In this document: positions 4,064 to 52,264 of the stretch, one piece after another | How the letters are laid out: each line of letters opens with the position of its first letter | How positions within the stretch are numbered: position 1 is the first letter of the stretch | Notes under the pieces: model-generated | Seen by the model: only the letters and a program-made list of their open reading frames with translations | Told to the model about the DNA's origin: nothing | Databases searched by the model: none | Translations under genes and position numbers: made by a program | DNA from: Promethearchaeota archaeon | GTDB lineage: Archaea; Asgardarchaeota; Lokiarchaeia; Sigyniarchaeales; SOKP01 | Assembly (NCBI GenBank): GCA_016840085.1 | Contig: JAEOTA010000054.1 | Location: 104,327-168,326 of the forward strand | Reading direction: 5' to 3' | DNA: 64,000 nucleotides

Positions 4064-4459
4064 TTACATTTCTTCTATTGCAAATCGGGGGCAACTATCC
4101 AGGCATAGCAGACAGCCTATACACTTCTCATAAGAGAATTCTAATCTTTCTTCTTCATCAAAATGTAACGCATCAGTCGGACATAATGAAATACAAGCTC
4201 CACAATCAATGCAGTTTTCAATATTAACTATTACTCGACCTTTTTTATTTACAACTATATTATTTTGTTTCAACGATTCTGTTATCGTTTTTATTTTCTC
4301 TTCTGGAATATCCAATAATAGATTTACACCATCCGAACCTGTAGTAAACTTTAAAATATTAAAGGTAATATCGTGTCTTAAGATTTCATTTACTATTTTA
4401 GAGTAATCATTGATGTTTTTTAGTAATCCAAAAGGTATTGAAACATTTATAATAGTCAA
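4064..4459 (-). CDS. NIL-domain ferredoxin, partner of aspartate-semialdehyde sulfurtransferase
   Basis: N-terminal NIL-like domain plus CIDCGACISLCP and CIGCLLCLDSCP; 1 bp from the DUF39-CBS gene. Confidence 0.85.
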   Translation of the reverse strand: MTIINVSIPFGLLKNINDYSKIVNEILRHDITFNILKFTTGSDGVNLLLDIPEEKIKTITESLKQNNIVVNKKGRVIVNIENCIDCGACISLCPTDALHFDEEERLEFSYEKCIGCLLCLDSCPRFAIEEM

Positions 4460-15592: not shown

Positions 15593-16879
15593 ATGAAAGT
15601 GAGAGCAATAACGATTGGAAATATTATACCCTTCTTATATAAAAATGAAACAATTTTATCTTTCTTACAAGAGAACCTGAATAGTTTCTCAGCTTTAAAT
15701 AATGAATTAATTCATGCGTTAGAACAAATTGGAATAAGTGTTGAAACCAAACGATTTTGTTCTCAACCACTTTTCAGTTTTGATAATAAACTTTTTTATG
15801 AAAAAAATTTAAAAGAGACTCTTGTAGAAATTACCAATCAGTTAAGTTTTTTACAAGATATTCTCAAAGATTACGAATTTGACTACTTTGCATGTTGTAT
15901 GATGCGAGGAGATCAAATTCAGGAGTTAGGGATTTTCGAAAAATTATTGTTAAGTGAAGTTTCAAATTTTATAAAAAATACAGATATCTTTTTTACTTCA
16001 TTACCAGTTGCCTCTACACAAGAAGGAATCAATATTACCGCATTAAAATCTGGTGCTAAAATAATAAAGCAACTTTCAGAACCAGATCCATTTAAAAATT
16101 TAAATTTTTGTGTATCTGCCAATGTGGGTCCAAATTATCCATTTTTCCCTGCAGCATATCATTTTTCAGACAAACCAGCATTTTCTCTTGCTTTAGAAAT
16201 GGCAGACGAAGTAATAGATGCTATAGAAAACTCAAATAGTTTAAAGGACGCTCAATTTAATTTATTAGCAAAGTTTAATAAAATCTATGACGATATAACA
16301 AAAATTTGCGAGAAAATTGGACGAAATTTCGATATAGAATTTAAAGGAATAGATCTTTCTCCTGCACCCTTTCCGGAAATAGAAAAAAGTATTGGTACTG
16401 CCATAGAAAAATTAGGTGTTGAGTATTTTGGAGCTATTGGTACACTTACTGGAGTTGCGTTAATAAAAAACTCTATACCCGTTGATAAAGAAAAAGTGAT
16501 AGGATTTTCTGGTTTTATGCAGCCTGTGTTAGAAGACTTCATTTTATCTAAAAGATTGGCTGAAAATAAATTCAACTTAGATTCACTTCTATTATATTCC
16601 ACTATGTGTGGTACTGGTCTTGATGTTGTTCCATTACCAGGTGATATTACTGAACAAGAGTTGTTTTATATTTTACTAGATATATGTACTATTTCTGTCA
16701 CTTTAAACAAGCCCTTAACAGCTAGGTTAATGCCAATACCCGGAAGAGACATTGGTGATGATGTTGAGTTTGATTTTGAGTATTTTGCACCTTCAAAGAT
16801 TATTAACTTTCGAAGGCTAACTGGCGAAAATAAAAATGATTTATTTAATAGTAATGAAAAGACAATAAAATTCTTCTAA
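15593..16879 (+). CDS. DUF711 family protein
   Basis: MKVRAITIG, PFFPAAYH, GIDLSPAP, GFSGFMQPVLED, CGTGLDVVPLPG, KPLTARLMP. Confidence 0.85.
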   Translation: MKVRAITIGNIIPFLYKNETILSFLQENLNSFSALNNELIHALEQIGISVETKRFCSQPLFSFDNKLFYEKNLKETLVEITNQLSFLQDILKDYEFDYFACCMMRGDQIQELGIFEKLLLSEVSNFIKNTDIFFTSLPVASTQEGINITALKSGAKIIKQLSEPDPFKNLNFCVSANVGPNYPFFPAAYHFSDKPAFSLALEMADEVIDAIENSNSLKDAQFNLLAKFNKIYDDITKICEKIGRNFDIEFKGIDLSPAPFPEIEKSIGTAIEKLGVEYFGAIGTLTGVALIKNSIPVDKEKVIGFSGFMQPVLEDFILSKRLAENKFNLDSLLLYSTMCGTGLDVVPLPGDITEQELFYILLDICTISVTLNKPLTARLMPIPGRDIGDDVEFDFEYFAPSKIINFRRLTGENKNDLFNSNEKTIKFF

Positions 16880-24229: not shown

Positions 24230-24952
24230 TTAGCGATCATGAAGAACGTTATCTATTGAAAGAACAAAACCTAAAAGAATTCTCCTGTCTGTTACATTAT
24301 CAAGTATTCGTAAAGCGTAAGTATCTTTAAAATCGAACAACCCACCAAGAAACATATCTCTCCATCTATCTGCTTTTTCTATTTCAGCAACAACATTTCC
24401 AGTTGTTACATCATATACTTTGAAACTAAAACCCATAAATTTACCTTGAGCCCTAAACCATTGATTCCCTTCAGGATCTTCAAGATAAAATACAGGTCTG
24501 AATAATGACAGGATTTTTTTCTTAATTCTGGCTATCATTTGTCCATCTGGTGTTTTCAAATCTTGCGCTCCTCGGGCTGATATGATTTTAGAGTGAATTG
24601 TAGCTACAACGGTGCCGTCAAGTTCTCGTAATTCAACTCTACGCCTAATACTTAAGATAATTCGTTTCATTCTTCCAATCGGTTGGTTTTTCTCGTCTAA
24701 AATGTCACCGGAGCCCCAGTCCCAATATTTTTCTTTTAATATGTAGTAGTTCCGGTTAATATCGAATAAACCTCCTGATCGACTATAAGGTTCCATACCT
24801 GTCGCTGGTCCAGTTGTAGGGGCAACTGAAGCAGGTGCACTTTGTCGCGCACTAGCCGGTATCGGTGAACCACATTTCTCACAGAAGTTTTGAGATAGAT
24901 CTTTTATTTCGGCCCCACAGTTATTACAAAATCTATTTGACATTTTTTCCAC
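24230..24952 (-). CDS. Zinc-ribbon + LURP-one/scramblase (tubby C-like) domain protein
   Basis: FCNNCG...FCEKCG, Pro/Ala linker, then repeated beta strands, GKFMGFSFKV, terminal helix RRILLGFVLSID. Confidence 0.8.
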   Translation of the reverse strand: MEKMSNRFCNNCGAEIKDLSQNFCEKCGSPIPASARQSAPASVAPTTGPATGMEPYSRSGGLFDINRNYYILKEKYWDWGSGDILDEKNQPIGRMKRIILSIRRRVELRELDGTVVATIHSKIISARGAQDLKTPDGQMIARIKKKILSLFRPVFYLEDPEGNQWFRAQGKFMGFSFKVYDVTTGNVVAEIEKADRWRDMFLGGLFDFKDTYALRILDNVTDRRILLGFVLSIDNVLHDR

Positions 24953-25100
24953 CTTTCTTTTTTTAAATATTTTTATACTAAAAATGGTAACTTGTTGTTA
25001 TAAATTTTAGGATTCAAGACATTTAATTTTTTTCTCATAGAAATGTTTTAATTGAATAAGGTTTAATTAATATTAAATTAAAAATACATTTAAAAGAGAA

Positions 25101-41639: not shown

Positions 41640-42972
41640 TCAAAAGATATTATTATCTAAGACTATCGTTTCCTTCCTATCCGGACCAATAGATATCATA
41701 GCTATATCTACTTGAAGCTCTTCTCTGATTGCTTGAAGGTATATTTTCATGGTGTCTGGTAAAGTGTCATATCCTTTTTCTGAAATTTCTAACCACTTAT
41801 CTCTACTCCTTTCTTCCCATCCTTCAAATGATTTATAAATTGGTTGGCATTTTTCTATAATCTCATGCTGAATAGGCCAACTTTCGAGTGTTTCTCCATT
41901 TAGTTCATATGCAATACACATCTTAATGGTGGGTATTCCTTGCAGAGCATCCAATAAAGTTATGATAATCTTATCAATTCCATTTATCATTATCCCATAT
42001 TTAATATTAAAGAGATCAATCCATCCGACTCTGCGTGGTCTTCCTGTTACCGTACCGTATTCATGACCTTGTTCTCTAATTTTTTCAGCAGTATCATTAA
42101 ATAATTCAGTTGGGAATTTACCCTCTCCCACTCTAGAAGTGTATGCTTTAATTATACCAACTACTTTATTAATTTTTTTAGGAGGTATTCCTGTTCCAGC
42201 AGAAATTCCAAGGGCATTAGCATTTGAAGAGGTACCAAATGGGTAACAACCATGATCTATACATAAGAGATTGCCTTGAGCTCCCTCGAAAACAACTCTT
42301 TTACCGCTATCTATAGCCTTATTTAAGTAATATGCTGTATCGATTACATATGGTTTTAGTTGTTTACCATAAGACTTATATTCTTCATAAATAGATTCTA
42401 AATCAACGTTCCAGCTCGGATCGTAAACCTGTATTATATCTTTCTTAATTTTATATAATTTCTCTAATTTAGGTCTTAATACGTCAGGATTGATCAGATC
42501 ATAAATTCTTAATCCCCAACGAGCCGCTTTATCCGAATATGTTGGTCCAATTCCTCGTTTTGTTGTACCAGCCCTATATTCTCCCTTTGATTTTTCTTCT
42601 AAGCTATCCAACGTGCGATGGAATGGGAAAATAACGTGGGCAGTAGAGCTTAATTTCAAATTAATTTTTTTATTGAGCTTTTTTAAATTTTCAATTTCTT
42701 CAAGAAGAACTTTTGGATCGACCACACATCCATTTGCAATAACACATTCCTTTTCAAGTGGAGCACCACTGGGAATTAACTTGAATTTGTATTTAATTCC
42801 ATTTGCATTGATCGTATGGCCTGCATTATTTCCGCCATTGTATCTTACGACAACATCTGCTTTTTGGGCTAAGTAATCGACGAATTTACCTTTTCCTTCG
42901 TTTGGGGTTAGCATGCGATTTGCCTTGCTAAGCTCCCCAACTTAACCCCATAATTGCTATATTATTACTCAT
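41640..42972 (-). CDS. purA: Adenylosuccinate synthetase split by a 31-nt intron (exons 42972-42933 and 42901-41640; 433 aa spliced)
   Basis: Exon 1 MSNNIAIMGLSWG(D) joined to exon 2 EGKGK; RYNGGNNAGHT, GTTKRGIGP, FEGAQG, EYGTVTGRPRRVGW. Confidence 0.95.
42902..42932 (-). other. Putative BHB-type mRNA intron in purA (31 nt: CTTAGCAAGGCAAATCGCATGCTAACCCCAA)
   Basis: GGGG/CCCC 4-bp helix, AG^C and AA^A trinucleotides, TTAGCA/TGCTAA intron stem; removal gives GGA GAC GAA GGA AAA. Confidence 0.85.
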
Positions 42973-43197
42973 AAGTCATTTTCCATTTGACATTTTTTTA
43001 GAATTACATCATCTTATTTGATCCAAAAAAGATTATTACATACAATTTATAAAATTTTTGGTAGGTAAGAACGGACATAAAAATGATATGAAATGATTTT
43101 TATATTCGAATTTTCTTTAAAATTATATCCTTATTTTGATAAACCATTAATAACAATAAAACTCCTTTAAAAAAATTTCTTTTAAAATGCTGGAACT

Positions 43198-44118
43198 ATG
43201 CCGCAGAAAACAATTTTATTTGATCTCGCTCATAATGAAATGCTAAATATAGAGGATGCTGAATTTTCCGACTTTCTAAGTCTTTTGAAAAGAATGGACA
43301 TTAAGATAAAGAAAACTGAGAATGAGCATCTTAAAAAGAATATGTTAAGTAATGTTGATCTCTTAGTAATTGGCAATCCAATTGATGATTATTTTTCCAG
43401 TATTGAAGTTAAATATATTGTTGATTTTGTTCGAAGTGGAGGGGGATTGCTTCTTTTAAGTGAATATGGCGCGGACTACCTTCAAAAAACTAATTTAAAT
43501 GATATTTCAGGAAAATTTGGGATTCTTTTTGAAAAGAATATAATTAAAGAAAGTACTAGGGAGAATCAAAATATTTCTAGCATATTACATATTAATAAAT
43601 TTTCAAAACATCAAATCACTAAAAATCTAAGAGAAATTGTGGTAGGAGGGGCGTGCTCTCTCCTTTTAAGTAAAGATGCAAAACCAATATTTCAAATTAA
43701 TAAACAATATGTGTGGTCAGAAGTTTTTAATAGCAGTACTGAACAATGGATTAAAGATGAGGAAGAGACACAACAAATTATAGCAGCATTTACAGAATTT
43801 GGGCAAGGAAAGGTATTAGCTATTGGAGATATTGATGTATTTACAACTGATTCTAATATTGGAATTAATTCCTTGGATAATCAAAAATTTTTGCAAAATG
43901 CCATAAATTGGTTAATAGAGCCAGTAAAAGAACAAATGGTGATAAGTTTTTTACTTAATCAATTAGGTGATCTTCAGTATGAAATCAGAGAAACCAATAA
44001 AATATTAAATAACATTATTGAAACGATCACAATATTAGAAAAAAGAATAAGTTATTTAGAGAAAAACTCGAGTTTTCACAAAAAAAGTTTAAAAAATGAA
44101 AAGAATAGCGAAAAGTAA
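43198..44118 (+). CDS. GIFT-domain (IFT52/GldG/DUF4350-like) protein with C-terminal coiled coil
   Basis: TILFDLAHNE, DLLVIGNP, FVRSGGGLLLL, TNLN, GQGKVLAIGD, NQKFLQNAINWL; heptad tail. Confidence 0.75.
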   Translation: MPQKTILFDLAHNEMLNIEDAEFSDFLSLLKRMDIKIKKTENEHLKKNMLSNVDLLVIGNPIDDYFSSIEVKYIVDFVRSGGGLLLLSEYGADYLQKTNLNDISGKFGILFEKNIIKESTRENQNISSILHINKFSKHQITKNLREIVVGGACSLLLSKDAKPIFQINKQYVWSEVFNSSTEQWIKDEEETQQIIAAFTEFGQGKVLAIGDIDVFTTDSNIGINSLDNQKFLQNAINWLIEPVKEQMVISFLLNQLGDLQYEIRETNKILNNIIETITILEKRISYLEKNSSFHKKSLKNEKNSEK

Positions 44119-44120
44119 TC

Positions 44121-44654
44121 ATGGGAGAAGTCACTTATAAAATTGTCGTTTTTGGAAATGGTGGAGTAGGGAAAACTACTCTACTTCATCGTTATATAAC
44201 AGGGAAATTCTTTTTAGACACAAAAGTGACGATTGGTTTGGACATTGCGGTGAAATACCTGGAAATAGAAGGTATTAAGATTACGCTTCAGATATGGGAT
44301 TTCGGAGGTGAAGATCGGTTTAGATTCCTTTTACCTAATTATACCCGTGGTGCATTTGGAGGAATTTTCATGTATGATACTACACGACCTCATAGTTTAC
44401 GGAATATTGATGAGTGGTTAGAAATATTTAGAAGAGAACAAATTAAAAAATTTCATGCTCCATTAATATTAGTTGGAGGAAAGTCAGATCTTATAACAAG
44501 GAGATTAATTTCTGAAAAAGAAGCAAAAAAAGTAGCAAAATCCTATAAAATTTCTCATCACTTTGAATGTTCTGCTAAAACGGGTGAAAATGTAGAATTA
44601 ATATTTGATACTTTAATAAGAACAATTATGAGAAAAGCAAGTCTCCTTAAATAG
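44121..44654 (+). CDS. Rab-like small GTPase
   Basis: GNGGVGKTT, TIGLD, WDFGGEDRFR, GKSD, CSAK. Confidence 0.92.
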   Translation: MGEVTYKIVVFGNGGVGKTTLLHRYITGKFFLDTKVTIGLDIAVKYLEIEGIKITLQIWDFGGEDRFRFLLPNYTRGAFGGIFMYDTTRPHSLRNIDEWLEIFRREQIKKFHAPLILVGGKSDLITRRLISEKEAKKVAKSYKISHHFECSAKTGENVELIFDTLIRTIMRKASLLK

Positions 44655-44901
44655 AGTTTTTTGAATATATTTCAGATATCTATTTTATTTCACTACTATA
44701 TAGAAGATCTAAATGCTTAATTGCCATTTCTTGCGAAATATGATGATTCTTTAATTTTTCAGAAATAGTAGTTAGGAGATATCTAGGGGTAAATTTATTA
44801 ATAGTTATATCAAATAAAAGAGCATAATGATTTTTGCCCCTTACTTCAATTTCATCCACACAATTTATCTATATATTTCTACTGTAAAAAAAACCTTTTT
44901 C

Positions 44902-44916
44902 GAGTCAATATGACTC
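44902..44916. promoter_or_regulatory. Inverted repeat GAGTCA-ATA-TGACTC, possible operator upstream of abfD
   Basis: 6-3-6 perfect dyad about 115 nt before ATG 45031. Confidence 0.35.
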
Positions 44917-45030
44917 AAGTATTTATCTTTAAAATGTTAGATCTTAATTTGTATTAAGACTATTTTTAATAATTATGAGAACTTTACTTTTTTATTAACT
45001 TAATTTGAAAAGATTTAGGTATTTAAAAAA

Positions 45031-46476
45031 ATGCCATTAAAAACGCCGGAAGAATATTTAGAGAGTATTAAAAGACCTGTAAACTTATACATGTTTGGTG
45101 AAAAAGTAAAAGAGTTTTGGAATCACCCAATTATCAAACCTTCGATAAATACTGTTATGAAAATTTATGAATTAGCACAATTGGATGAATATAAGGACCT
45201 CATGACAGCAAAATCACATTTAACTGGTGAAACAATTAATCGATTCACTCACATTCATCAATCTATAGATGATTTAATTAAAAAAGTACAAATGCAAAGA
45301 TTACTTGGACAAAAAACTGCGTGTTGTTTTCAGAGATGTGTTGGTTTTGATACCGCTAATGCGTTATACAGTGTAACTTCCGAAATGGATAAAAAATATG
45401 GAACAGATTATCATAACCGATTCAAAAATTATTGGATTGAAGTACAAAATCAAGATTTAATGGTTGATGGGGCCATGACAGATACAAAAGGAGATCGAAG
45501 TAAAAGACCTAACCAACAATCAGATCTAGATGCATATTTGCATATTGTGGAAGAGAATGATGAGGGTATTGTCGTTCGAGGCGCAAAAGTCCATCAGACT
45601 GGATTTTTAAACTCTCATAGAGCCATTATTATGCCTACTCTTACTATACGTCCTGGAGAAGAAGAATACGCTGTTAGTTTCGGAATAGATACTAATGCTA
45701 AAGGAATCACTTTAGTATATGGAAGGCAATCATGTGATACTAGAAAAATGGAAAAAGGAAAATTAGATATTGGTAACTTTAAGTATGGAGGTCAAGAGAT
45801 ATTTGTAATCTTTGATAATGTGTTTGTTCCAAAAGATCAAATCTTTATGAAGGGTGAAATTGAATTTTCAGGAGAATTAGTCAACAGATTTGCTGGTTTT
45901 CATAGACAATCATATGGCGGGTGTAAAGTGGGAGTTGGAGATGTGCTCATTGGGGCAGCAGCTTTAATTTCAGAATATAATGGGACAGAAAGAGCGTCTC
46001 ACATTCGTGATAAACTTGTTGAGATGGTTCATTTAAACGAGACACTATATAGTTGTGGAATTGCATGTAGTTCTTTGGGTTTTCAAAGAGAAGCTGGAAA
46101 TTATGAAATGGATATGCTACTTGCAAATGTTTGTAAGCAAAATGTTACTCGATTTCCCTATGAAATAGGGAGATTAGCTGAAGATCTCGCCGGGGGATTA
46201 ATATGTACACTTCCTTCTGAAGCAGATTTCAAATCTGAGGAAATTGGTCACTTAATAAGCAAATATCTTTCCACATGTGAAGGAATAGGACCTGATGATC
46301 GTTATAAAGTTCTGCGCTTTATTGAAAATTTGACGATGGGCGTTGCTTCAGTAAGCTATCGGACGGAATCAATGCATGGAGCAGGAAGCCCTATGACGCA
46401 GAGAATTATGATTTCACGTCAAGCCAATCTGGAAGAAAAGAAGAAGCATGTAAAAAATATTCTTGATATTGATTAA
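45031..46476 (+). CDS. abfD: 4-hydroxybutyryl-CoA dehydratase / vinylacetyl-CoA isomerase
   Basis: CCFQRCVG, GAMTDTKGDRS, GAKVHQTG, FHRQSYGGCKVG, ESMHGAGSP. Confidence 0.9.
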   Translation: MPLKTPEEYLESIKRPVNLYMFGEKVKEFWNHPIIKPSINTVMKIYELAQLDEYKDLMTAKSHLTGETINRFTHIHQSIDDLIKKVQMQRLLGQKTACCFQRCVGFDTANALYSVTSEMDKKYGTDYHNRFKNYWIEVQNQDLMVDGAMTDTKGDRSKRPNQQSDLDAYLHIVEENDEGIVVRGAKVHQTGFLNSHRAIIMPTLTIRPGEEEYAVSFGIDTNAKGITLVYGRQSCDTRKMEKGKLDIGNFKYGGQEIFVIFDNVFVPKDQIFMKGEIEFSGELVNRFAGFHRQSYGGCKVGVGDVLIGAAALISEYNGTERASHIRDKLVEMVHLNETLYSCGIACSSLGFQREAGNYEMDMLLANVCKQNVTRFPYEIGRLAEDLAGGLICTLPSEADFKSEEIGHLISKYLSTCEGIGPDDRYKVLRFIENLTMGVASVSYRTESMHGAGSPMTQRIMISRQANLEEKKKHVKNILDID

Positions 46477-46561
46477 ATTGTAAATGTTATAAGAAAATTT
46501 TAAACGTACTATAATTTTAATCCAATTAAATAAATAATTCCATTTTCTAAATTGGTAAAAC

Positions 46562-47944
46562 ATGAGTGAGAAATCATTTGATGAGATATTTTCTGTTTTT
46601 GAAGAGGTTTGCAACAGCTATAAAAGGAGTAATCAATATTTTGACATTCTTTTTGATTCAGAATCATCTGCTCTTATTACAAAATCACGTACATCAGAAA
46701 ATATTGTTGTGAATGCAAAGAAATCGGGAATAGTTGCTAGAACATTTACAGGCATATGGAAAGAAATAACTTTAACTGAATTTTCAGGCATAAAAAAAAT
46801 CGAAGAAAAATTGCCTAGAGTTGCAAATATGGGTAAAAATCTTATGGAATTTGAAGGATGGAGTTTAAATGAAGAAATAAAGCCAAAAATTAATCCACTT
46901 GAAGTTCCAATTGATGAAAAAATCAAAAAAGTTAGAGATATTTATGACTATATGATGAAAACTGATGACCGAATAATTAATACGGAAGTTAAATACATGG
47001 AACAATTTACGGAACGAATTTTTTTTAATAATGAAGGATGTCAATTAAGGCAAGTCATCCCTAGATCAAAACTCTTTATTATTCCTGTAGCAAAAGAAGG
47101 AATTGTAGCAGACTATGATTATTACATTGATACTGGTGAAATTGGCTTTGAAATCTTTGATAAGATTGATAATGACACATTAGATAAAACTGCTGAAAAA
47201 TCTTTGGAGCTGCTCCAAGCAGTATTAGCACCTTCTGGAAAATATCCTGTCATTTTAGACCCTGGTATGACTGGAATAGTCGCACATGAAAGTTTTGGAC
47301 ATGGTCTTGAAGCAGATCAAGTTATGCGGGATAGAAGTTATTTGAAAGCGAAACTTAATCAACAAGTTGCATCTGAAATTTGTACAATCTGTGATTCACC
47401 TACAATTGATAATGCTTTTGGGACTTACTTTTTTGATGATGAGGGGATCAAAGCAAGTAAAAATCTATTGGTTAAAGATGGGATATTAAAAGATTTCATA
47501 TATGATAGAAGAACTGCTTCTGCGTTAAATGCCATCCCAAAAGGTAATGGGAGAAGGGAAAGTTTTGCTCATCCTGTTCACCCAAGAATGACAAATACTT
47601 ATTTTGAACCTGGTGATTATTCCCTAGAAGAAATGATTAAAGGAATCAAGTATGGTGTGTTTTTGGTTCATGAATATTTCGGTATGGAAGATCCACTTGG
47701 AGGAGGGATGCAAAACACTTCTAAGAAAGGCTATTTAATTGAGAATGGAGAAAAAACCAAGATATTAAAGGCGGTAACACTAAGTGGTCATGTATTGGAG
47801 ACATTACCCAAAATTGATGCAATTAGTAGGGGACCAATTGAAATAAATGGAGGGACATGTGGCAAAGGTGATGAAGATAATGTTCCTGTAGGGAGCGGAG
47901 GTACTTACGTTCGAATTAAAGAAGCATTAATTAGTCCAGGGTGA
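46562..47944 (+). CDS. tldD: TldD family metalloprotease
   Basis: AHESFGHGLEAD (HExxxH), DDEG, GNGRRES, PRMTNT, CGKG. Confidence 0.92.
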   Translation: MSEKSFDEIFSVFEEVCNSYKRSNQYFDILFDSESSALITKSRTSENIVVNAKKSGIVARTFTGIWKEITLTEFSGIKKIEEKLPRVANMGKNLMEFEGWSLNEEIKPKINPLEVPIDEKIKKVRDIYDYMMKTDDRIINTEVKYMEQFTERIFFNNEGCQLRQVIPRSKLFIIPVAKEGIVADYDYYIDTGEIGFEIFDKIDNDTLDKTAEKSLELLQAVLAPSGKYPVILDPGMTGIVAHESFGHGLEADQVMRDRSYLKAKLNQQVASEICTICDSPTIDNAFGTYFFDDEGIKASKNLLVKDGILKDFIYDRRTASALNAIPKGNGRRESFAHPVHPRMTNTYFEPGDYSLEEMIKGIKYGVFLVHEYFGMEDPLGGGMQNTSKKGYLIENGEKTKILKAVTLSGHVLETLPKIDAISRGPIEINGGTCGKGDEDNVPVGSGGTYVRIKEALISPG

Positions 47945-49281
47945 TATTAAAGATGACAAATGAAAAATTTGATTTAATTGAAGAAACTCTTAAAGCGAAA
48001 AATATTGAGGAATATGAAATTTATTTCATTGAAAAAGAATTCTATGAAACAATGTTCTTAAAAAGTGAACCAGAAGTAGAAAGAGAAATAGAAGATTTTG
48101 AGTATTTTATCCGAATCCTTACTCAAAAAGGAGATCAAACGGGAGTAGGTGTTGTTAAAGGAAATTCTATGGATTCTAAAGAATTAGGAAAAAATATAGA
48201 TACTTGCGTTTTGCTTTCTAAGAATAATATTACTTCAAAATATCGGTTTCCAGAAAAGAGACCAATTTCAAAAATTACTACAGCTGACAACGCTATATTG
48301 AAAGATCCGATTGGTATAAAAAATGATCTATGTGAAGAGCTAATAAGCCTAGTTAAAGAACAAAAAGGAGTAGTTCCAACTTTTGGTCGGTTAAGGTTAC
48401 ATATTAAAAATAGCTTGTTAAGAAATAGTAATGAAGTAAATCTTGATTCCACAAAAACATTCTTGTATGTAGAATATTCCTTAAAGGCACAAAGAAATGG
48501 GAAATTATCTGAATATTGGAACACAGAATATTTCAAAGAAAAAGAACATTTAAATTTTAAGAAAAGAGTGGTTGAATGGGCAAAAATTGCAAAAGATACT
48601 TTAATAGCAGAACCACCTAAACCTAATAAGGAAGCAATTGTTATATTTACACCTCATGTTTTAAAGGAAGCAATTATTCCCGTGATTGGATTTCATGCTT
48701 CAGGACAGTCTTTTAGCGAGGAGACTTCTGCTTACAATATAAATAATGAGGTGGCTTCTAAAGAAATCACAATTATAGATGATGGACTCCTTGAAGGCGG
48801 ATTAAGCTCTAACCCATGGGATGGTGAAGGAAATCCTCATCAGAAAACAGTAGTGATCAAAAATGGTATCTTCCAAAAACGATTGTATGATCAAAAATAT
48901 GCTAAAATAAACGGTGAAGATTCAACTGGAAACGGGATAAGAAGCAATTTTGGTGGAATTAATAATGGGATTAGCAATTTCCAAATTATTCCTGGAACCA
49001 CATCTTTAGATGATATGATTTCAGATATAAAAGAAGGTTATTATATAGAGAAATTTTCATGGTTGAACCCTGAAGAATTATCAGGATATTTCGGCGCAGA
49101 AATAAGAAATGGCTATTATATTAAAAATGGTGAATTTCAGAATCCAATAAAACTTGGAAATGTGAGTGGTAATGTTTTAGAAATGATGAAAAATTGTCTA
49201 CATATTTCAAAAGAAACAGAATTTTCAGAGAATTCTCTCTTTCCATATATGTGTTTCTCTAATTTAACCGTGTCATTTTAA
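47941..49281 (+). CDS. pmbA: TldE/PmbA family protein
   Basis: WDGEG, STGNG, SGN; lacks HExxxH; 4-bp overlap with tldD. Confidence 0.85.
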   Translation: MILKMTNEKFDLIEETLKAKNIEEYEIYFIEKEFYETMFLKSEPEVEREIEDFEYFIRILTQKGDQTGVGVVKGNSMDSKELGKNIDTCVLLSKNNITSKYRFPEKRPISKITTADNAILKDPIGIKNDLCEELISLVKEQKGVVPTFGRLRLHIKNSLLRNSNEVNLDSTKTFLYVEYSLKAQRNGKLSEYWNTEYFKEKEHLNFKKRVVEWAKIAKDTLIAEPPKPNKEAIVIFTPHVLKEAIIPVIGFHASGQSFSEETSAYNINNEVASKEITIIDDGLLEGGLSSNPWDGEGNPHQKTVVIKNGIFQKRLYDQKYAKINGEDSTGNGIRSNFGGINNGISNFQIIPGTTSLDDMISDIKEGYYIEKFSWLNPEELSGYFGAEIRNGYYIKNGEFQNPIKLGNVSGNVLEMMKNCLHISKETEFSENSLFPYMCFSNLTVSF

Positions 49282-49333
49282 AATTAATATTAATCTTTTT
49301 TATTTAAGACCTTAAAAAAAAGTAGAATAAGAA

Positions 49334-50563
49334 TTAATTATCTTTTTCAATCTCAACTTTAATTAAGTTGTAATTTCTTGTTCCTAAGCCTATTTCTTCA
49401 GCTGCTTTTAATTGTGTTTCCCAGTGTTTTGATTCTTTTCCATCTTGATTAAAATTCATCTCTCTGGACTGAGGATCATAACGAGGGATGTGTGAAAACC
49501 ATTCAAAAGGTCCTTGCATTGGTATATTTTTTACTTCCGAAAGAATTGAATGAGGGTTAATTGAAGATTTATGTATAAGATCTACGGTAGCTTGATCCAA
49601 GGCAACGGGATCTAAGGACGCTAAAACCCCAATATCTGGAACAAACGGGATGTCAGAACCTCCTGTACAATCACATTGATAGGTTATATCTATAGCAAAA
49701 TTAATGTAAAAAATCTTATCTTTTCCGAAATAATCTACTACTCCCTTGGCGTTGTCAACCATCTGAGTAATAAATTCAACACGCGGAACGTGACCTATAT
49801 TAATTACTTCATCTTTACATACAGAAGCACACATATAACAAAATTTACACAATTCTTCGTTAAAACTTAATTTATTGTCATCATCTTTGGTCAAAGCATG
49901 TGTAGGACATATATTAATACAATTCTTGCATTCAAGATTACAAGAATCAAAATTAAACTCGAAAGTTTTCCCTGTATGTGCTTCAACCTTACCTCCCTTA
50001 GAAACACATCCGATTCCAAGATTTTTTATTGAACCTCCGAAACCGGCACTTGCATGTCCTTTAAAATGAGTTGCCATAATCATATAATCAAATTTTCTTA
50101 AGCGTCCTGCTACTAACACTTCATTAAAACGTTTCCCATTAATCTTCTGAATTTCAATATCAGTTCCATCCTCCCCATCTAACATTAAAATTGGTGCTCC
50201 CATAGTTTCTTCTGTAAAACCATGAATTAAGGCAGTTTTTAAATATTCAGTTTCAGTTGCTCTACCCGAATATTCTGTATGAACCCCAGAGACACTTTCT
50301 GGTACACCCCATCCACATGATTCTGCTAAAGATGGAACAGCGCCTAAATCTTTAGTATAATCGCATAAAAATCGTAAATAACTTGGACGGAGATATCGAG
50401 TATTCTCTAATGCTCCAAAATGTGTCTTAATTACTATTTTATCGCCACTTTTAATCCTTTGCTCAATTCCAAGCTTCTTCAATGCTAATGGACCTTTAAA
50501 TTTACTCATACTTTGCTCATGAGAGTGAGTTCGAGCTGTAAAATAAAATACATCTGATTTCAT
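49334..50563 (-). CDS. DUF362 family Fe-S protein with ferredoxin insert
   Basis: IKTHFG, HFKGH...FGGSIKNLGIGC, two Cys clusters, CDC...DIGVLASLDPVALDQA. Confidence 0.88.
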   Translation of the reverse strand: MKSDVFYFTARTHSHEQSMSKFKGPLALKKLGIEQRIKSGDKIVIKTHFGALENTRYLRPSYLRFLCDYTKDLGAVPSLAESCGWGVPESVSGVHTEYSGRATETEYLKTALIHGFTEETMGAPILMLDGEDGTDIEIQKINGKRFNEVLVAGRLRKFDYMIMATHFKGHASAGFGGSIKNLGIGCVSKGGKVEAHTGKTFEFNFDSCNLECKNCINICPTHALTKDDDNKLSFNEELCKFCYMCASVCKDEVINIGHVPRVEFITQMVDNAKGVVDYFGKDKIFYINFAIDITYQCDCTGGSDIPFVPDIGVLASLDPVALDQATVDLIHKSSINPHSILSEVKNIPMQGPFEWFSHIPRYDPQSREMNFNQDGKESKHWETQLKAAEEIGLGTRNYNLIKVEIEKDN

Positions 50564-50719
50564 TTCTTTTCACTAATTAAAACTTCTCTATAATTCATGT
50601 AAATAATTAGGGTTTATAATTTAAGGCAAAAAATATTTTAACACTAATTAATTCTATTAATATAATAAATAAATACAATAATAACTCAGAAAAAAAAAGA
50701 AAAATAGGACGGTATTTTA

Positions 50720-50978
50720 ATGGCCCGCTGTCCAGAAAGTTTTTTTGTATACACAAATTAACATGGATTGCGGAGGGTTTATGAAATACCATTCAGCTAT
50801 AAAACAAGTCGTCTGCCAATCATGTGGACTTTCTTTAACGAGGCATGAATTAGATCGTTATTGGAAAAAGGTGAGGAATGAAAATATTTCGGAGGTAGAT
50901 GATACGCAGCAAAAGAAAAATCGACGTAAAGAATGGCTTGAATGGTATTCTTCTTCCAAATCTGATAAAGAATATTAA
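50720..50978 (+). CDS. Small Zn-ribbon protein split by a 31-nt intron (exons 50720-50737 and 50769-50978; 75 aa MARCPECGGFMKY...CQSCG...)
   Basis: Spliced product restores the CPECGG knuckle that pairs with CQSCG; unspliced frame stops at TAA 50759-50761. Confidence 0.8.
50738..50768 (+). other. Putative BHB-type mRNA intron (31 nt: AGTTTTTTTGTATACACAAATTAACATGGAT)
   Basis: h CTGT/GCGG; H CCAG/ATGG (3 WC + G.A); bulges AA^A and AT^T; intron stems GTT/AAC and TTTGT/ACAAA. Confidence 0.75.
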
Positions 50979-51052
50979 AAGTAGAAATTATAAAGAAATT
51001 CTACATAAAAAGAGAATTCTATTTAGAATAAGAAAAATTGAGTTATAATCTA

Positions 51053-52264
51053 TTAATTACCAAGCATTCTTTCAATAATATCTTCTAATAATTCTGCTAA
51101 TTTTTTTGCGGGAATATCTAATAAAGTAATTTCTAGATGCCTTCCTCGAGTAGCATCTTCAATTCTCACCGTTTTTGAAGCAATAATTTTAAGTTGGTTA
51201 AGTTGGCGTATATATTTTCTGAAACTCATTTTTACATGCGGTTCTACTAAATAACTCTCACATATTACCTTATATTCTTCGTACGCATCATCAACAAGAG
51301 TAAAAGGTGTATCGGAGTTTATCAATGATCTCGTAATTCCATACAAAGCTAACAGCTCTTGATCTTTTAATTCGTCAATTATATCATTTCTAAATGTAGG
51401 ATATACATCATCTGAAGCTTCTCTAATTATATCAGCTGTAATTAAGTTCAATTCTTCTTTATCGCAATATGACCCACTTTTTCTTAATATTTCAATTCCA
51501 TGTCTCATGTTTTTATGGTCCACAACTATCTGAGAAACCATAGTTAATAGTTCTTCATCAATAACATATTCTTTAAGTGCTAATTCGCTGCGGTATTTTA
51601 AAATTTGCATTGCTTCATCAAATTCATAGGGTTCAAGTTTAATTCTCTCGTTCAATCTGCTTAAAATTCTTTCATTTTCAATCCGCATCCAATCTTTACT
51701 TCTACAAATTAATAGCAATGATAATTTTGCGTTTTGATGTCCAAAAGTTTCTGCAATGTCAAGAAATGCTAAAACATCATCAGGATTTAAAAGATGAATC
51801 TCATCTATTATCAATAACATATAACCTTGTTCCCGAATTAGTTGGGAGAGAATTAACTTTAAGGCTTCGTCGTCGCTAAAGCCTCTACCGCTTCCATGCT
51901 GATATTTAGCGAGAAGCTCTCTGATTATCTTACTTTTAGAACGAAAATTGATACAATTATAATATTCAATGAAGAGATTTACATCTTTTTCAGTTGCAAT
52001 TGTTCTAAAATTTTTGCCGAAATATCTCGCAGTGCAAGTTTTTCCAACACCGCCTTTTCCCAAGATAAGACAATTTATAGAAGGCTGCTCTTCTTCTTCC
52101 AAAATTCTCCTATAATTAAAAATTAATGTTTTTAGAGCGTCATCTCGACAATATAACTTGTCCGGCACCCAACTTAAATCAAGAGTTCCAGACATTCGAA
52201 AAACTGATTTTTTCCCAAATTCCTTTCTAAAAGCATCCTCGTCCATAATAAATCGAGTAAGCAA
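51053..52264 (-). CDS. cdc6: Orc1/Cdc6 family AAA+ ATPase
   Basis: WVPDKLYCRD, GKGGVGKT, YYNC, LIIDEIH, RILSRL, C-terminal winged helix with RGR. Confidence 0.92.
   Translation of the reverse strand: MLTRFIMDEDAFRKEFGKKSVFRMSGTLDLSWVPDKLYCRDDALKTLIFNYRRILEEEEQPSINCLILGKGGVGKTCTARYFGKNFRTIATEKDVNLFIEYYNCINFRSKSKIIRELLAKYQHGSGRGFSDDEALKLILSQLIREQGYMLLIIDEIHLLNPDDVLAFLDIAETFGHQNAKLSLLLICRSKDWMRIENERILSRLNERIKLEPYEFDEAMQILKYRSELALKEYVIDEELLTMVSQIVVDHKNMRHGIEILRKSGSYCDKEELNLITADIIREASDDVYPTFRNDIIDELKDQELLALYGITRSLINSDTPFTLVDDAYEEYKVICESYLVEPHVKMSFRKYIRQLNQLKIIASKTVRIEDATRGRHLEITLLDIPAKKLAELLEDIIERMLGN

What the first reader, a model, noticed from the sequence alone, without database searches (positions are those of the whole stretch)
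42902..50768. Candidate system: BHB micro-introns in Asgard archaeal mRNAs (two independent 31-nt cases within 8 kb)
Seen: two unrelated genes on opposite strands (purA and a Zn-ribbon gene) each have a 31-nt insertion within 40 nt of the ATG. Each insertion carries an in-frame stop, shifts the frame and splits an essential motif. The insertions share no obvious sequence similarity but have the same geometry: 4-nt helix strand, 3-nt bulge, intron stem-loop, complementary helix strand, 3-nt bulge. In both, the junction that restores the protein lies exactly after bulge nucleotide 2 on both strands. Known: this is the cleavage rule of the archaeal tRNA splicing endonuclease EndA (ligation by RtcB), and the best-known mRNA case is crenarchaeal cbf5. 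Inference: two hits in 64 kb suggest many genes in this genome need EndA/RtcB splicing and are mis-annotated as truncated. That would be a post-transcriptional control layer in the lineage closest to eukaryotes.
Basis: partly seen in the sequence, partly recalled or inferred. Interest (0 to 1): 0.97.

Follow-up and report, generated by a model that had tools for sequence, protein, structure and literature searches.

The report
tRNA-type mini-introns in Asgard protein genes
Two single-copy protein genes of this Lokiarchaeia-type Asgard archaeon (purA and a small zinc-ribbon gene) are each broken by a 31-base hairpin shaped like a tRNA intron, so their messenger RNAs almost certainly have to be cut and rejoined by the tRNA-splicing enzymes, something the searchable literature reports inside a coding sequence for only one archaeal gene (cbf5).

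Summary
Observation confirmed. There are 31-nt inserts at window 42902-42932 (minus strand, purA) and 50738-50768 (plus strand, Zn-ribbon gene). Each carries an in-frame stop and shifts the frame.

- **Orthologs.** Same-genus orthologs either carry an insert at exactly the same site (purA: 19 distinct alleles; Zn-ribbon: 12) or lack it. The insert-free ones read exactly the predicted spliced sequence, WGDEGKGK and MARCPECGG.
- **Geometry.** Both inserts fit the bulge-helix-bulge pattern: a 4-nt helix, 3-nt bulges, and a cut after bulge nucleotide 2. purA fits perfectly and shows compensatory base changes. The Zn-ribbon insert fits with 3 of 4 central pairs.
- **Internal control.** A tRNA-Gly intron of 30 nt in the same genome has the same geometry.
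- **Enzymes.** EndA, RtcB and Archease are all present.
- **Census.** A homology-only comparison with 2 Mb of a relative's genome found 7 such 30-31-nt introns in 6 genes: EF-2 (two), uS3, a Ras-like GTPase, an AMP-binding enzyme, a phosphorylase and the Zn-ribbon gene. That is about 0.6% of conserved genes.
- **Missing evidence.** No RNA run holds this organism, so splicing is inferred, not observed. Any regulatory role is untested.

Earlier agents of this scan reported the same phenomenon in other Asgard genomes. I found no paper on it.

The parts
42933..42972 (-). purA exon 1 (ATG at 42972; 13 codons plus 1 nt; encodes MSNNIAIMGLSWG and the first base of Asp)
   Evidence: Conserved as an ATG-initiated exon in all 19 distinct intron-bearing alleles.
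42902..42932 (-). purA BHB micro-intron, 31 nt. First base C at 42932; hairpin arms 42931-42926 and 42913-42908; central-helix strand CCCC 42907-42904; last two bases AA 42903-42902.
   Evidence: Covariation. Absent from 43 orthologs that read WGDEGKGK or YGDEGKGK.
42933..42938 (-). Exon part of the 5' splice motif: central-helix strand GGGG (42938-42935) plus bulge nucleotides AG (42934-42933).
   Evidence: The Gly codon is always GGA in intron-bearing alleles but varies freely in intron-less ones.
41640..42901 (-). purA exon 2 (adenylosuccinate synthetase, Pfam PF00709 profile positions 10-416; includes the stop codon).
50720..50737 (+). Zn-ribbon gene exon 1 (MARCPE; holds the first Cys-Pro-x-Cys half-knuckle). 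Outer-helix strand CUGU 50728-50731; central-helix strand CCAG 50732-50735; bulge AA 50736-50737.
50738..50768 (+). Zn-ribbon gene BHB-like micro-intron, 31 nt. Central-helix strand AUGG 50763-50766; last two bases AU 50767-50768.
   Evidence: Absent from 11 same-genus orthologs that read ATG GCN CGN TGY CCN GAR TGY GGN GGN.
50769..50978 (+). Zn-ribbon gene exon 2 (CGGFMKYHSAIKQVVCQSCG... to the stop). Outer-helix strand GCGG 50770-50773.
   Evidence: Zinc-ribbon profiles match from residue 1-4 of the intron-less ortholog, below curated cut-offs.

Best explanation
Both inserts are archaeal bulge-helix-bulge (BHB) introns sitting inside protein-coding sequence.

Proposed mechanism. After transcription, the last six exon-1 bases and the 3' end of the insert pair into a 4-bp helix flanked by two 3-nt bulges, closed by the intron hairpin. 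The tRNA-splicing endonuclease EndA cuts after the second nucleotide of each bulge. RtcB, helped by Archease, joins the exons, and the 31-nt intron is released, probably as a circle. Only the spliced mRNAs encode full PurA (P-loop GDEGKGK with the catalytic Asp) and the complete C4 zinc ribbon (CPEC...CQSC). Unspliced RNA yields 14- and 13-residue peptides.

Shown here: the inserts, their conserved position, the exact junction (from insert-free orthologs), the RNA geometry with covariation, the identical geometry of a tRNA intron in the same genome, the presence of the enzymes, and further cases genome-wide.

Inferred: that cleavage and ligation actually occur, and that EndA and RtcB perform them.

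The introns look old and are repeatedly and precisely lost within the genus. I see no evidence that they regulate anything.
For: 1. Junction defined by orthologs. 43 purA orthologs without the insert read TGG GGN GAY GAR GG (WGDEGKGK, or YGDEGKGK in three). All 19 distinct insert-bearing alleles (30-32 nt) give ...GLSWGDEGKGK when cut by the rule. The 11 insert-free Zn-ribbon orthologs read MARCPECGG (MSRCPECGG in one), and 12 insert-bearing ones (28-31 nt) give the same.

2. Structure. On the purA alignment 89.7% of cells are paired, against 27-49% when the partners are slid. Six pairs have compensatory changes in 19 cells, and 0 of 500 shuffles reach the covariation score. For the Zn gene 86.5% are paired against 39% or less when slid.

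3. Constraint on exon bases that form the motif. The Gly codon is GGA in 19 of 19 intron alleles, against T13/C10/G4/A6 at the third position in intron-less alleles. The Pro codon is CCA in 12 of 12 intron alleles, against CCT/CCA/CCG/CCC in intron-less ones.

4. Homology-only census against 2.0 Mb of relative G006. This found 7 inserts of 30-31 nt in 6 genes. All obey the rule of a 4-nt helix, 3-nt bulges and a cut after nucleotide 2. 6 of 8 introns tested have 4/4 central pairs, against 9 of 176 shifted registers. Pfam profiles continue across the exons: AMP-binding 25-219 then 222-384, and Ras 1-34 then 38-157.

5. Internal control. tRNA-Gly(GCC) has a 30-nt intron at position 37/38 with UUGC CA|U ... 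GCAA UU|A.

6. Enzymes. There is one EndA gene. RtcB and Archease are adjacent.

7. Both genes are single-copy in the genome.

8. Literature. Asgard EndA is reported to carry the L1 insert associated with broad substrate specificity, that is relaxed BHB motifs (PMC5829648), and Asgard tRNA genes are heavily interrupted (PMC11291895; bioRxiv 10.64898/2026.10.13.758758).
Against: No RNA evidence. No listed sequencing run holding this DNA is on record as RNA, so no spliced junction or excised circle has been seen.

The Zn-ribbon central helix always has one non-pair in the productive register. A competing fold absorbs the 3' bulge, and covariation there is weak (2 pairs, 4 cells).

Most of these mRNA introns, purA included, lack an outer helix closing the 3' bulge, so they are relaxed motifs. 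Only one EndA gene, most similar to the homotetrameric M. jannaschii enzyme, was found. I have not shown that this enzyme accepts relaxed motifs.

For the Zn-ribbon introns of most relatives the junction can slide by 1-2 nt without changing the product, so the 'nucleotide 2' rule is not uniquely determined there.
Confidence: 0.88

Rival explanations
1. Translational bypassing (ribosome hopping, as in phage T4 gene 60 or yeast mitochondrial 'byps'). The ribosome would skip the 31 nt during translation, and the RNA would never be spliced.
For: The inserts are short hairpins with a stop codon close to the 5' junction, which superficially resembles bypass elements.
Against: No matched take-off and landing codons give the ortholog sequence. 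For purA, re-pairing of GGA with the next GGA would delete Asp-Glu-Gly from the P-loop, and re-pairing of GCU lands in a frame that runs into a stop (read from the sequence). Hopping gives no reason for a 4-bp helix between exon and intron with two 3-nt bulges at fixed distance. That geometry is found in 8 of 8 homology-defined introns and in a tRNA intron of the same genome.
Confidence: 0.03
2. The interrupted genes are decaying, or are expressed as N-terminally truncated proteins from internal start codons (MLTPNEGKGK... for PurA, MDCGG... for the Zn protein). The upstream exons would then be meaningless.
For: In this genome both inserts happen to contain an ATG in frame with exon 2, which is what an ORF caller would annotate.
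Against: That ATG is absent from most other intron-bearing alleles. Exon 1 stays ATG-initiated, open and conserved in 19 of 19 purA alleles and 12 of 12 Zn alleles across diverged species. The truncated PurA would lack Trp-Gly-Asp of the P-loop and the truncated Zn protein would lack one Cys knuckle, both kept by every intron-less ortholog. Both genes are single-copy. EF-2 and uS3 carry the same kind of insert mid-gene, where no internal start could rescue them.
Confidence: 0.04
3. The inserts are removed, but by another route: a different nuclease and ligase pair, or excision at the DNA level in part of the population.
For: Nothing here shows which enzyme acts. Only one EndA subunit gene was found, and many of the motifs are relaxed.
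Against: The geometry is the defining EndA substrate and is identical to that of tRNA introns in the same genome. DNA contigs from four samples show only the insert-bearing form for this organism. The one insert-free joint seen differs in its flanks and so belongs to a co-occurring relative.
Confidence: 0.04
4. Assembly or sequencing artefact.
For: None found.
Against: Contigs of other samples cover both inserts with zero differences. There are 19 and 12 diverged alleles in other species' genomes at the same sites.
Confidence: 0.005

Closest known systems
BHB intron in the cbf5 pre-mRNA of Crenarchaeota (Watanabe 2002; Yokobori 2009, as cited in PMC7714728 and PMC6379350)
   Same: A tRNA-type bulge-helix-bulge intron inside a protein-coding sequence, removed by the splicing endonuclease and a ligase. 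It interrupts the reading frame.
   Different: cbf5 is one gene in another archaeal phylum. Here at least 9 introns in 8 unrelated genes of one genome were confirmed, all 30-31 nt, in an Asgard (Promethearchaeota) genus, and they are polymorphic for presence or absence among species. cbf5 splicing was shown experimentally. These introns have not been tested.
BHB intron in the 5' UTR of Haloferax volcanii HVO_1309 mRNA (PMC7714728)
   Same: A substrate of the archaeal splicing endonuclease located in an mRNA.
   Different: That intron lies in an untranslated region and does not interrupt a coding frame. It is a strict hBHBh' motif cut by an alpha2-type enzyme.
BHB introns of Asgard tRNA genes (PMC11291895; bioRxiv 10.64898/2026.10.13.758758; PMC5829648)
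   Same: Same lineage, same motif and same presumed enzymes. The tRNA-Gly(GCC) intron of this genome has the same geometry and the same 30-nt length. The pattern of repeated gain or loss among relatives is also similar.
   Different: Those are in tRNA genes, and the papers do not mention mRNAs. In mRNAs the exon strand of the central helix is constrained by coding.
HAC1/XBP1 unconventional cytoplasmic mRNA splicing in eukaryotes (IRE1 plus tRNA ligase or RtcB; summarised in PMC4090602)
   Same: A short non-spliceosomal intron in an mRNA, cut by an endonuclease at stem-loop sites and sealed by the tRNA ligase. Splicing changes the reading frame.
   Different: The endonuclease is IRE1, not the tRNA-splicing endonuclease. 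It is a regulated stress switch in one mRNA. No regulation is shown here.
Programmed translational bypassing (T4 gene 60; mitochondrial byps)
   Same: Short hairpin inserts with stops inside coding sequence that do not appear in the protein.
   Different: Bypassing needs matched take-off and landing codons and leaves the RNA intact. Those codons are absent here, and the BHB geometry has no role in bypassing.

Membership tests
Archaeal BHB intron (EndA/RtcB-spliced) | Two 3-nt bulges on opposite strands separated by a 4-bp helix at the exon-intron boundaries (PMC6379350) | tested here: met
   purA: GGGG AG|C ... CCCC AA|A, 4/4 pairs, kept in 18 of 19 alleles. Zn gene: met only in relaxed form, 3 of 4 central pairs in all 12 alleles, plus a 4-bp outer helix.
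Archaeal BHB intron (EndA/RtcB-spliced) | Cutting at the symmetric positions in the two bulges yields the functional product | tested here: met
   Cutting after bulge nucleotide 2 gives exactly the sequence of insert-free orthologs for purA (19 alleles), the Zn gene (12 alleles) and 6 further introns. The same rule reproduces the 37/38 junction of tRNA-Gly and tRNA-Ser in this genome.
Archaeal BHB intron (EndA/RtcB-spliced) | Structure maintained by compensatory substitutions | tested here: met
   purA: 6 pairs and 19 cells with changes on both sides; 0 of 500 shuffles reach the score. Zn gene: weak, 2 pairs and 4 cells.
Archaeal BHB intron (EndA/RtcB-spliced) | Genome encodes the splicing endonuclease and the 3'-phosphate RNA ligase | tested here: met
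   EndA 202 aa with PF02778 and PF01974. RtcB 555 bits. Archease next to RtcB.
Archaeal BHB intron (EndA/RtcB-spliced) | Endonuclease of a type that accepts relaxed motifs ((alpha-beta)2 or epsilon2 with a specific loop) | tested here: inconclusive
   Only one EndA gene was found, with no paralogue at E up to 10. The best solved match is the M. jannaschii alpha4 enzyme. The literature assigns Asgard an (alpha-beta)2 enzyme with the L1 loop (PMC5829648).
Archaeal BHB intron (EndA/RtcB-spliced) | Spliced junction and excised (circular) intron present in RNA | not testable with these tools
   No listed run that holds this DNA is on record as RNA.
Programmed translational bypass element | Matched take-off and landing codons flanking the skipped stretch that give the conserved protein | tested here: not met
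   Read from the sequence. No pair of identical codons restores WGDEGKGK or CPECGG.
Self-splicing group I or group II intron | Ribozyme core of hundreds of nucleotides, detectable by Rfam models | tested here: not met
   The inserts are 31 nt. There is no Rfam match anywhere in the window.

The most novel reading that the evidence does not exclude
This Lokiarchaeia-type genus, and by earlier notes of this scan several other Asgard classes, may run a standing mRNA-splicing regime on the tRNA-splicing machinery, covering core genes such as EF-2, uS3 and purA. In that reading the supply of EndA, RtcB and Archease gates translation capacity and nucleotide synthesis, as a prokaryotic counterpart of HAC1/XBP1-type unconventional splicing. 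The uniform 30-31-nt introns would be gained and precisely lost through an RNA-level route (reverse splicing plus reverse transcription), in the lineage closest to eukaryotes.
Probability: 0.15. Interest if true: 0.92.

Novelty: new variant of a known kind. Interest (0 to 1): 0.8.

Why it matters
Papers I could search state that only one BHB intron inside a coding sequence is known in archaea (cbf5), plus one in a 5' UTR (PMC7714728).

Here an Asgard genus carries such introns in many unrelated genes, including essential single-copy ones, and they are polymorphic among species. This has three consequences.

1. Gene calls in these genomes are systematically wrong. Genes appear truncated, split or 'pseudo', and pangenome, metabolic and phylogenomic analyses of Asgard archaea inherit those errors.
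2. Archaeal mRNA must sometimes be processed before translation, even though transcription and translation are coupled. That raises a concrete and testable question about timing.
3. It gives a tractable natural system for intron gain and loss in coding genes in the closest prokaryotic relatives of eukaryotes. Dozens of species pairs differ by a single intron.

Tried and rejected
RNA evidence. The look-up of sequencing runs listed no RNA holder for the 9.5-kb stretch. Expression and splicing could therefore not be examined.

Structure-only genome scans.
- Requiring a 4-bp central helix, 3-nt bulges and a hairpin of at least 4 bp gave 676,137 motifs.
- ORF-joining filters gave equal counts for the true cut and for cuts shifted by 1-2 nt (4211 against 4163-4343).
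- There was no excess at 30-31 nt.
- In this 29.5% G+C genome such scans cannot see the introns above background. Only homology to insert-free relatives finds them.

False candidates from the homology screen. These were 12-27-nt 'inserts' just upstream of start codons, hits on antisense shadow frames (for example C9:138211 on the plus strand, which is the reverse strand of the real C9 intron), and weak N-terminal matches. All were rejected on inspection.

Other points:
- A second EndA subunit was not found with PF01974, PF02778 or the alpha protein itself.
- The introns are not a repeated mobile family: each is single-copy by blastn-short.
- The careful maximum-likelihood tree did not finish in time, so the quick tree was used.
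- Marck and Grosjean 2003 could not be read. The 'cut after bulge nucleotide 2' rule therefore rests on my own knowledge plus the tRNA control.


Full report
**What is in the window**

On the minus strand, an ATG at 42972 opens a 13-codon frame (MSNNIAIMGLSWG). It runs into a TAG two codons later. The long adenylosuccinate synthetase frame (Pfam PF00709, profile positions 10-416) resumes in another frame. Deleting exactly 42932-42902 (31 nt) joins them as ...LSWGDEGKGKFVDY, which restores the P-loop.

On the plus strand, an ATG at 50720 opens MARCPE and then runs into a stop. The frame CGGFMKYHSAIKQVVCQSCG... follows after 31 nt (50738-50768). Deleting those 31 nt gives MARCPECGG..., a complete four-cysteine zinc ribbon.

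**Are the inserts real?**

Contigs from three other samples of the same study cover each insert with no differences. One contig in those samples joins 50698 to 50769 through different flanking letters that read ATGGCTCGCTGCCCTGAA. This is an insert-free allele of a co-occurring relative, not a variant of this organism.

Other species give the stronger evidence. Their records are titled Promethearchaeota, that is Lokiarchaeia-type MAGs. Of 71 purA loci, 28 carry an insert at this exact site. These make 19 distinct sequences of 30-32 nt. The other 43 have no insert and read TGG GGN GAY GAR GG. All purA genes from other families of the order are insert-free.

For the Zn-ribbon gene, 12 of 23 same-genus loci carry an insert of 28-31 nt at the same site. 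The other 11 read ATG GCN CGN TGY CCN GAR TGY GGN GGN. Both genes are single-copy in this genome.

**Where is the junction, and is it a BHB?**

The insert-free orthologs fix the junction.

For purA it falls as GGGG AG|C - UUAGCA...UGCUAA - CCCC AA|A. That is a 4-bp helix between exon 1 and the 3' end of the insert, a 3-nt bulge on each strand, an intron hairpin, and both cuts after the second bulge nucleotide. All 19 alleles give ...GLSWGDEGKGK by this rule. All keep an ATG-initiated exon 1, and all are terminated by a stop if read unspliced.

On the alignment, 89.7% of cells pair, against 27-49% when the partners are slid. Six pairs carry compensatory changes, for example UA to AU and GC to AU. 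None of 500 shuffles reaches the covariation score.

Exon bases that belong to the motif are frozen only where the intron is present. The Gly codon is GGA in 19 of 19 intron alleles. Its third position is T13/C10/G4/A6 in intron-less alleles.

For the Zn gene the productive register is CCAG AA|A ... AUGG AU|U in this genome and CCAG AA|A ... CUGA AA|U in most relatives. There is a 4-bp outer helix, CUGY/GCGG. The central helix always has one non-pair. Covariation is weak. In the window's allele a competing 5-bp helix is the minimum-energy fold. The Pro codon is CCA in 12 of 12 intron alleles but varies in intron-less ones. So the Zn gene carries a relaxed BHB, while purA carries a canonical central motif without an outer helix.

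**Internal control**

ARAGORN finds only 13 tRNAs in this 98.8%-complete genome, and 11 of them have introns. This fits published reports that Asgard tRNA genes are heavily interrupted and that standard tools miss many of them (PMC11291895; PMC5829648; bioRxiv 10.64898/2026.10.13.758758).

tRNA-Gly(GCC) has a 30-nt intron at position 37/38 laid out as ccagg UUGC CA|U ... GCAA UU|A ccugg. tRNA-Ser(GGA) has a 17-nt intron laid out as UUGG AG|C ... CCAG AA|A. The mRNA inserts therefore have the same geometry as bona fide tRNA introns of the same cell, and in one case the same length.

**Enzymes**

- One EndA gene: 202 aa, with both the N-terminal and the catalytic domain.
- One RtcB gene.
- An adjacent Archease gene.

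No second EndA subunit was found. The closest solved structure is the homotetrameric M. jannaschii enzyme. The literature assigns Asgard archaea an (alpha-beta)2 enzyme with the L1 loop, which is associated with broad specificity (PMC5829648). The subunit question is open for this genome.

**Is it genome-wide?**

Structure-only scans fail in this AT-rich genome. I therefore fetched 2.0 Mb of a closed same-genus genome (G006) and searched its stop-to-stop frames against this genome with tblastn. I looked only for short extra DNA with stops or frame changes inside otherwise collinear alignments.

Among 1193 clean conserved frames this found 7 inserts in 6 genes:
- EF-2, two inserts (one splits AH|IDHGKT);
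- ribosomal protein uS3;
- an AMP-binding enzyme;
- a Ras-family GTPase (split at TVGV|N);
- a glycosyl-transferase-3-family phosphorylase;
- the Zn-ribbon gene.

All are 30 or 31 nt.

Only afterwards did I test geometry. All obey the rule. In shifted registers only 9 of 176 do. Pfam profiles run on across the exons.

In the reverse direction, G006 has one 30-nt BHB intron that this genome lacks. It lies in the orthologue of window 24233-24997.

Within the window itself, orthologues from five insert-poor relatives cover 45 kb and show only the two reported introns.

My estimate is about 0.6% of conserved genes, so a few dozen introns per genome. Each intron is single-copy, so this is not a repeat family.

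**History**

On a quick purA tree the intron needs at least 6 changes, of which at least 4 are forced by well-supported branches. The intron sequences of distant clades still resemble each other. The likeliest history is one old gain followed by repeated precise losses, but this is inference.

Presence of the two window introns across genomes: both in 7, purA only in 2, Zn only in 4, neither in 8.

**Rivals**

- Translational bypassing lacks the required codon pairs and does not explain the geometry.
- Truncated proteins from internal ATGs are contradicted by conserved exon 1 and by the mid-gene introns in EF-2 and uS3.
- An assembly artefact is excluded.
- Which enzyme acts, and whether splicing is regulated, remain untested.

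**Literature**

In the held library, a 2020 paper states that cbf5 is the only other BHB intron reported in an archaeal mRNA, besides its own 5'-UTR case (PMC7714728). Searches combining Asgard or Lokiarchaeota with BHB, intron and mRNA terms returned only tRNA, rRNA and group I/II intron papers. The library lacks most subscription journals.

Earlier agents of this scan reported the same kind of intron in other Asgard genomes, one of them with RNA support. I did not check those reports.

Noticed in passing
window 24233-24997 (minus strand): This gene (LURP-one-related domain plus a zinc ribbon) is uninterrupted here. Its orthologue in the closed relative G006 carries a 30-nt BHB intron (UGGG AU|A, 9-bp hairpin, CCUG AU|U) between ...KEKYWD and WGSG.... 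Intron presence and absence therefore goes both ways between species.
   Followed up: partly
G000 contig C4:14083-16404 (locus L251): EF-2 is cut into three exons by two 30-nt BHB introns (C4:16273-16302 and 16144-16173). The first splits the GTP-binding motif AH|IDHGKT.
   Followed up: yes
G000 contigs C85:142249-142278, C6:13999-14028, C24:30582-30611, C9:138211-138240, C19:6018-6047 (loci L252-L256): There are further 30-nt BHB introns in uS3, an AMP-binding enzyme, a Ras-family GTPase, a glycosyl-transferase-3-family phosphorylase and a ThiS-like protein. In the ThiS-like protein the intron precedes the last four codons, which carry the C-terminal Gly-Gly.
   Followed up: yes
G000 contig C78:52861-52890 and C4:202483-202512: The structure scan picked two more 30-nt candidates with long open frames on both sides (AUAU AG|A ... 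GUGU AA|A, and GACC AC|A ... GGUU AA|U). Neither was checked against orthologues.
   Followed up: no
whole genome G000: ARAGORN finds only 13 tRNA genes in a 4.68-Mb genome that is 98.8% complete, and 11 of them have introns. Most tRNA genes are probably too interrupted to be recognised.
   Followed up: no
window 50698-50769, runs X2-X4: The same sediment samples hold a contig of a related organism with the insert-free allele of the Zn-ribbon gene (ATGGCTCGCTGCCCTGAA joined directly to TGCGG...). Intron-bearing and intron-free species therefore co-occur.
   Followed up: partly
window 43198-44654: A protein with a GIFT-type domain (IFT52_GIFT / ABC_transp_aux hits, E about 1e-9) sits directly upstream of a Ras-family small GTPase, with a 3-nt gap.
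   Followed up: no
window 45031-49281 and 49334-52264: Neighbouring genes are an HpaB-family (4-hydroxyphenylacetate hydroxylase / 4-hydroxybutyryl-CoA dehydratase-like) enzyme, a PmbA/TldD pair, a DUF362 iron-sulfur protein and an Orc1/Cdc6 homologue.
   Followed up: no
G000 contig C83:46122-47862: Archease and RtcB are immediate neighbours on opposite strands.
   Followed up: no
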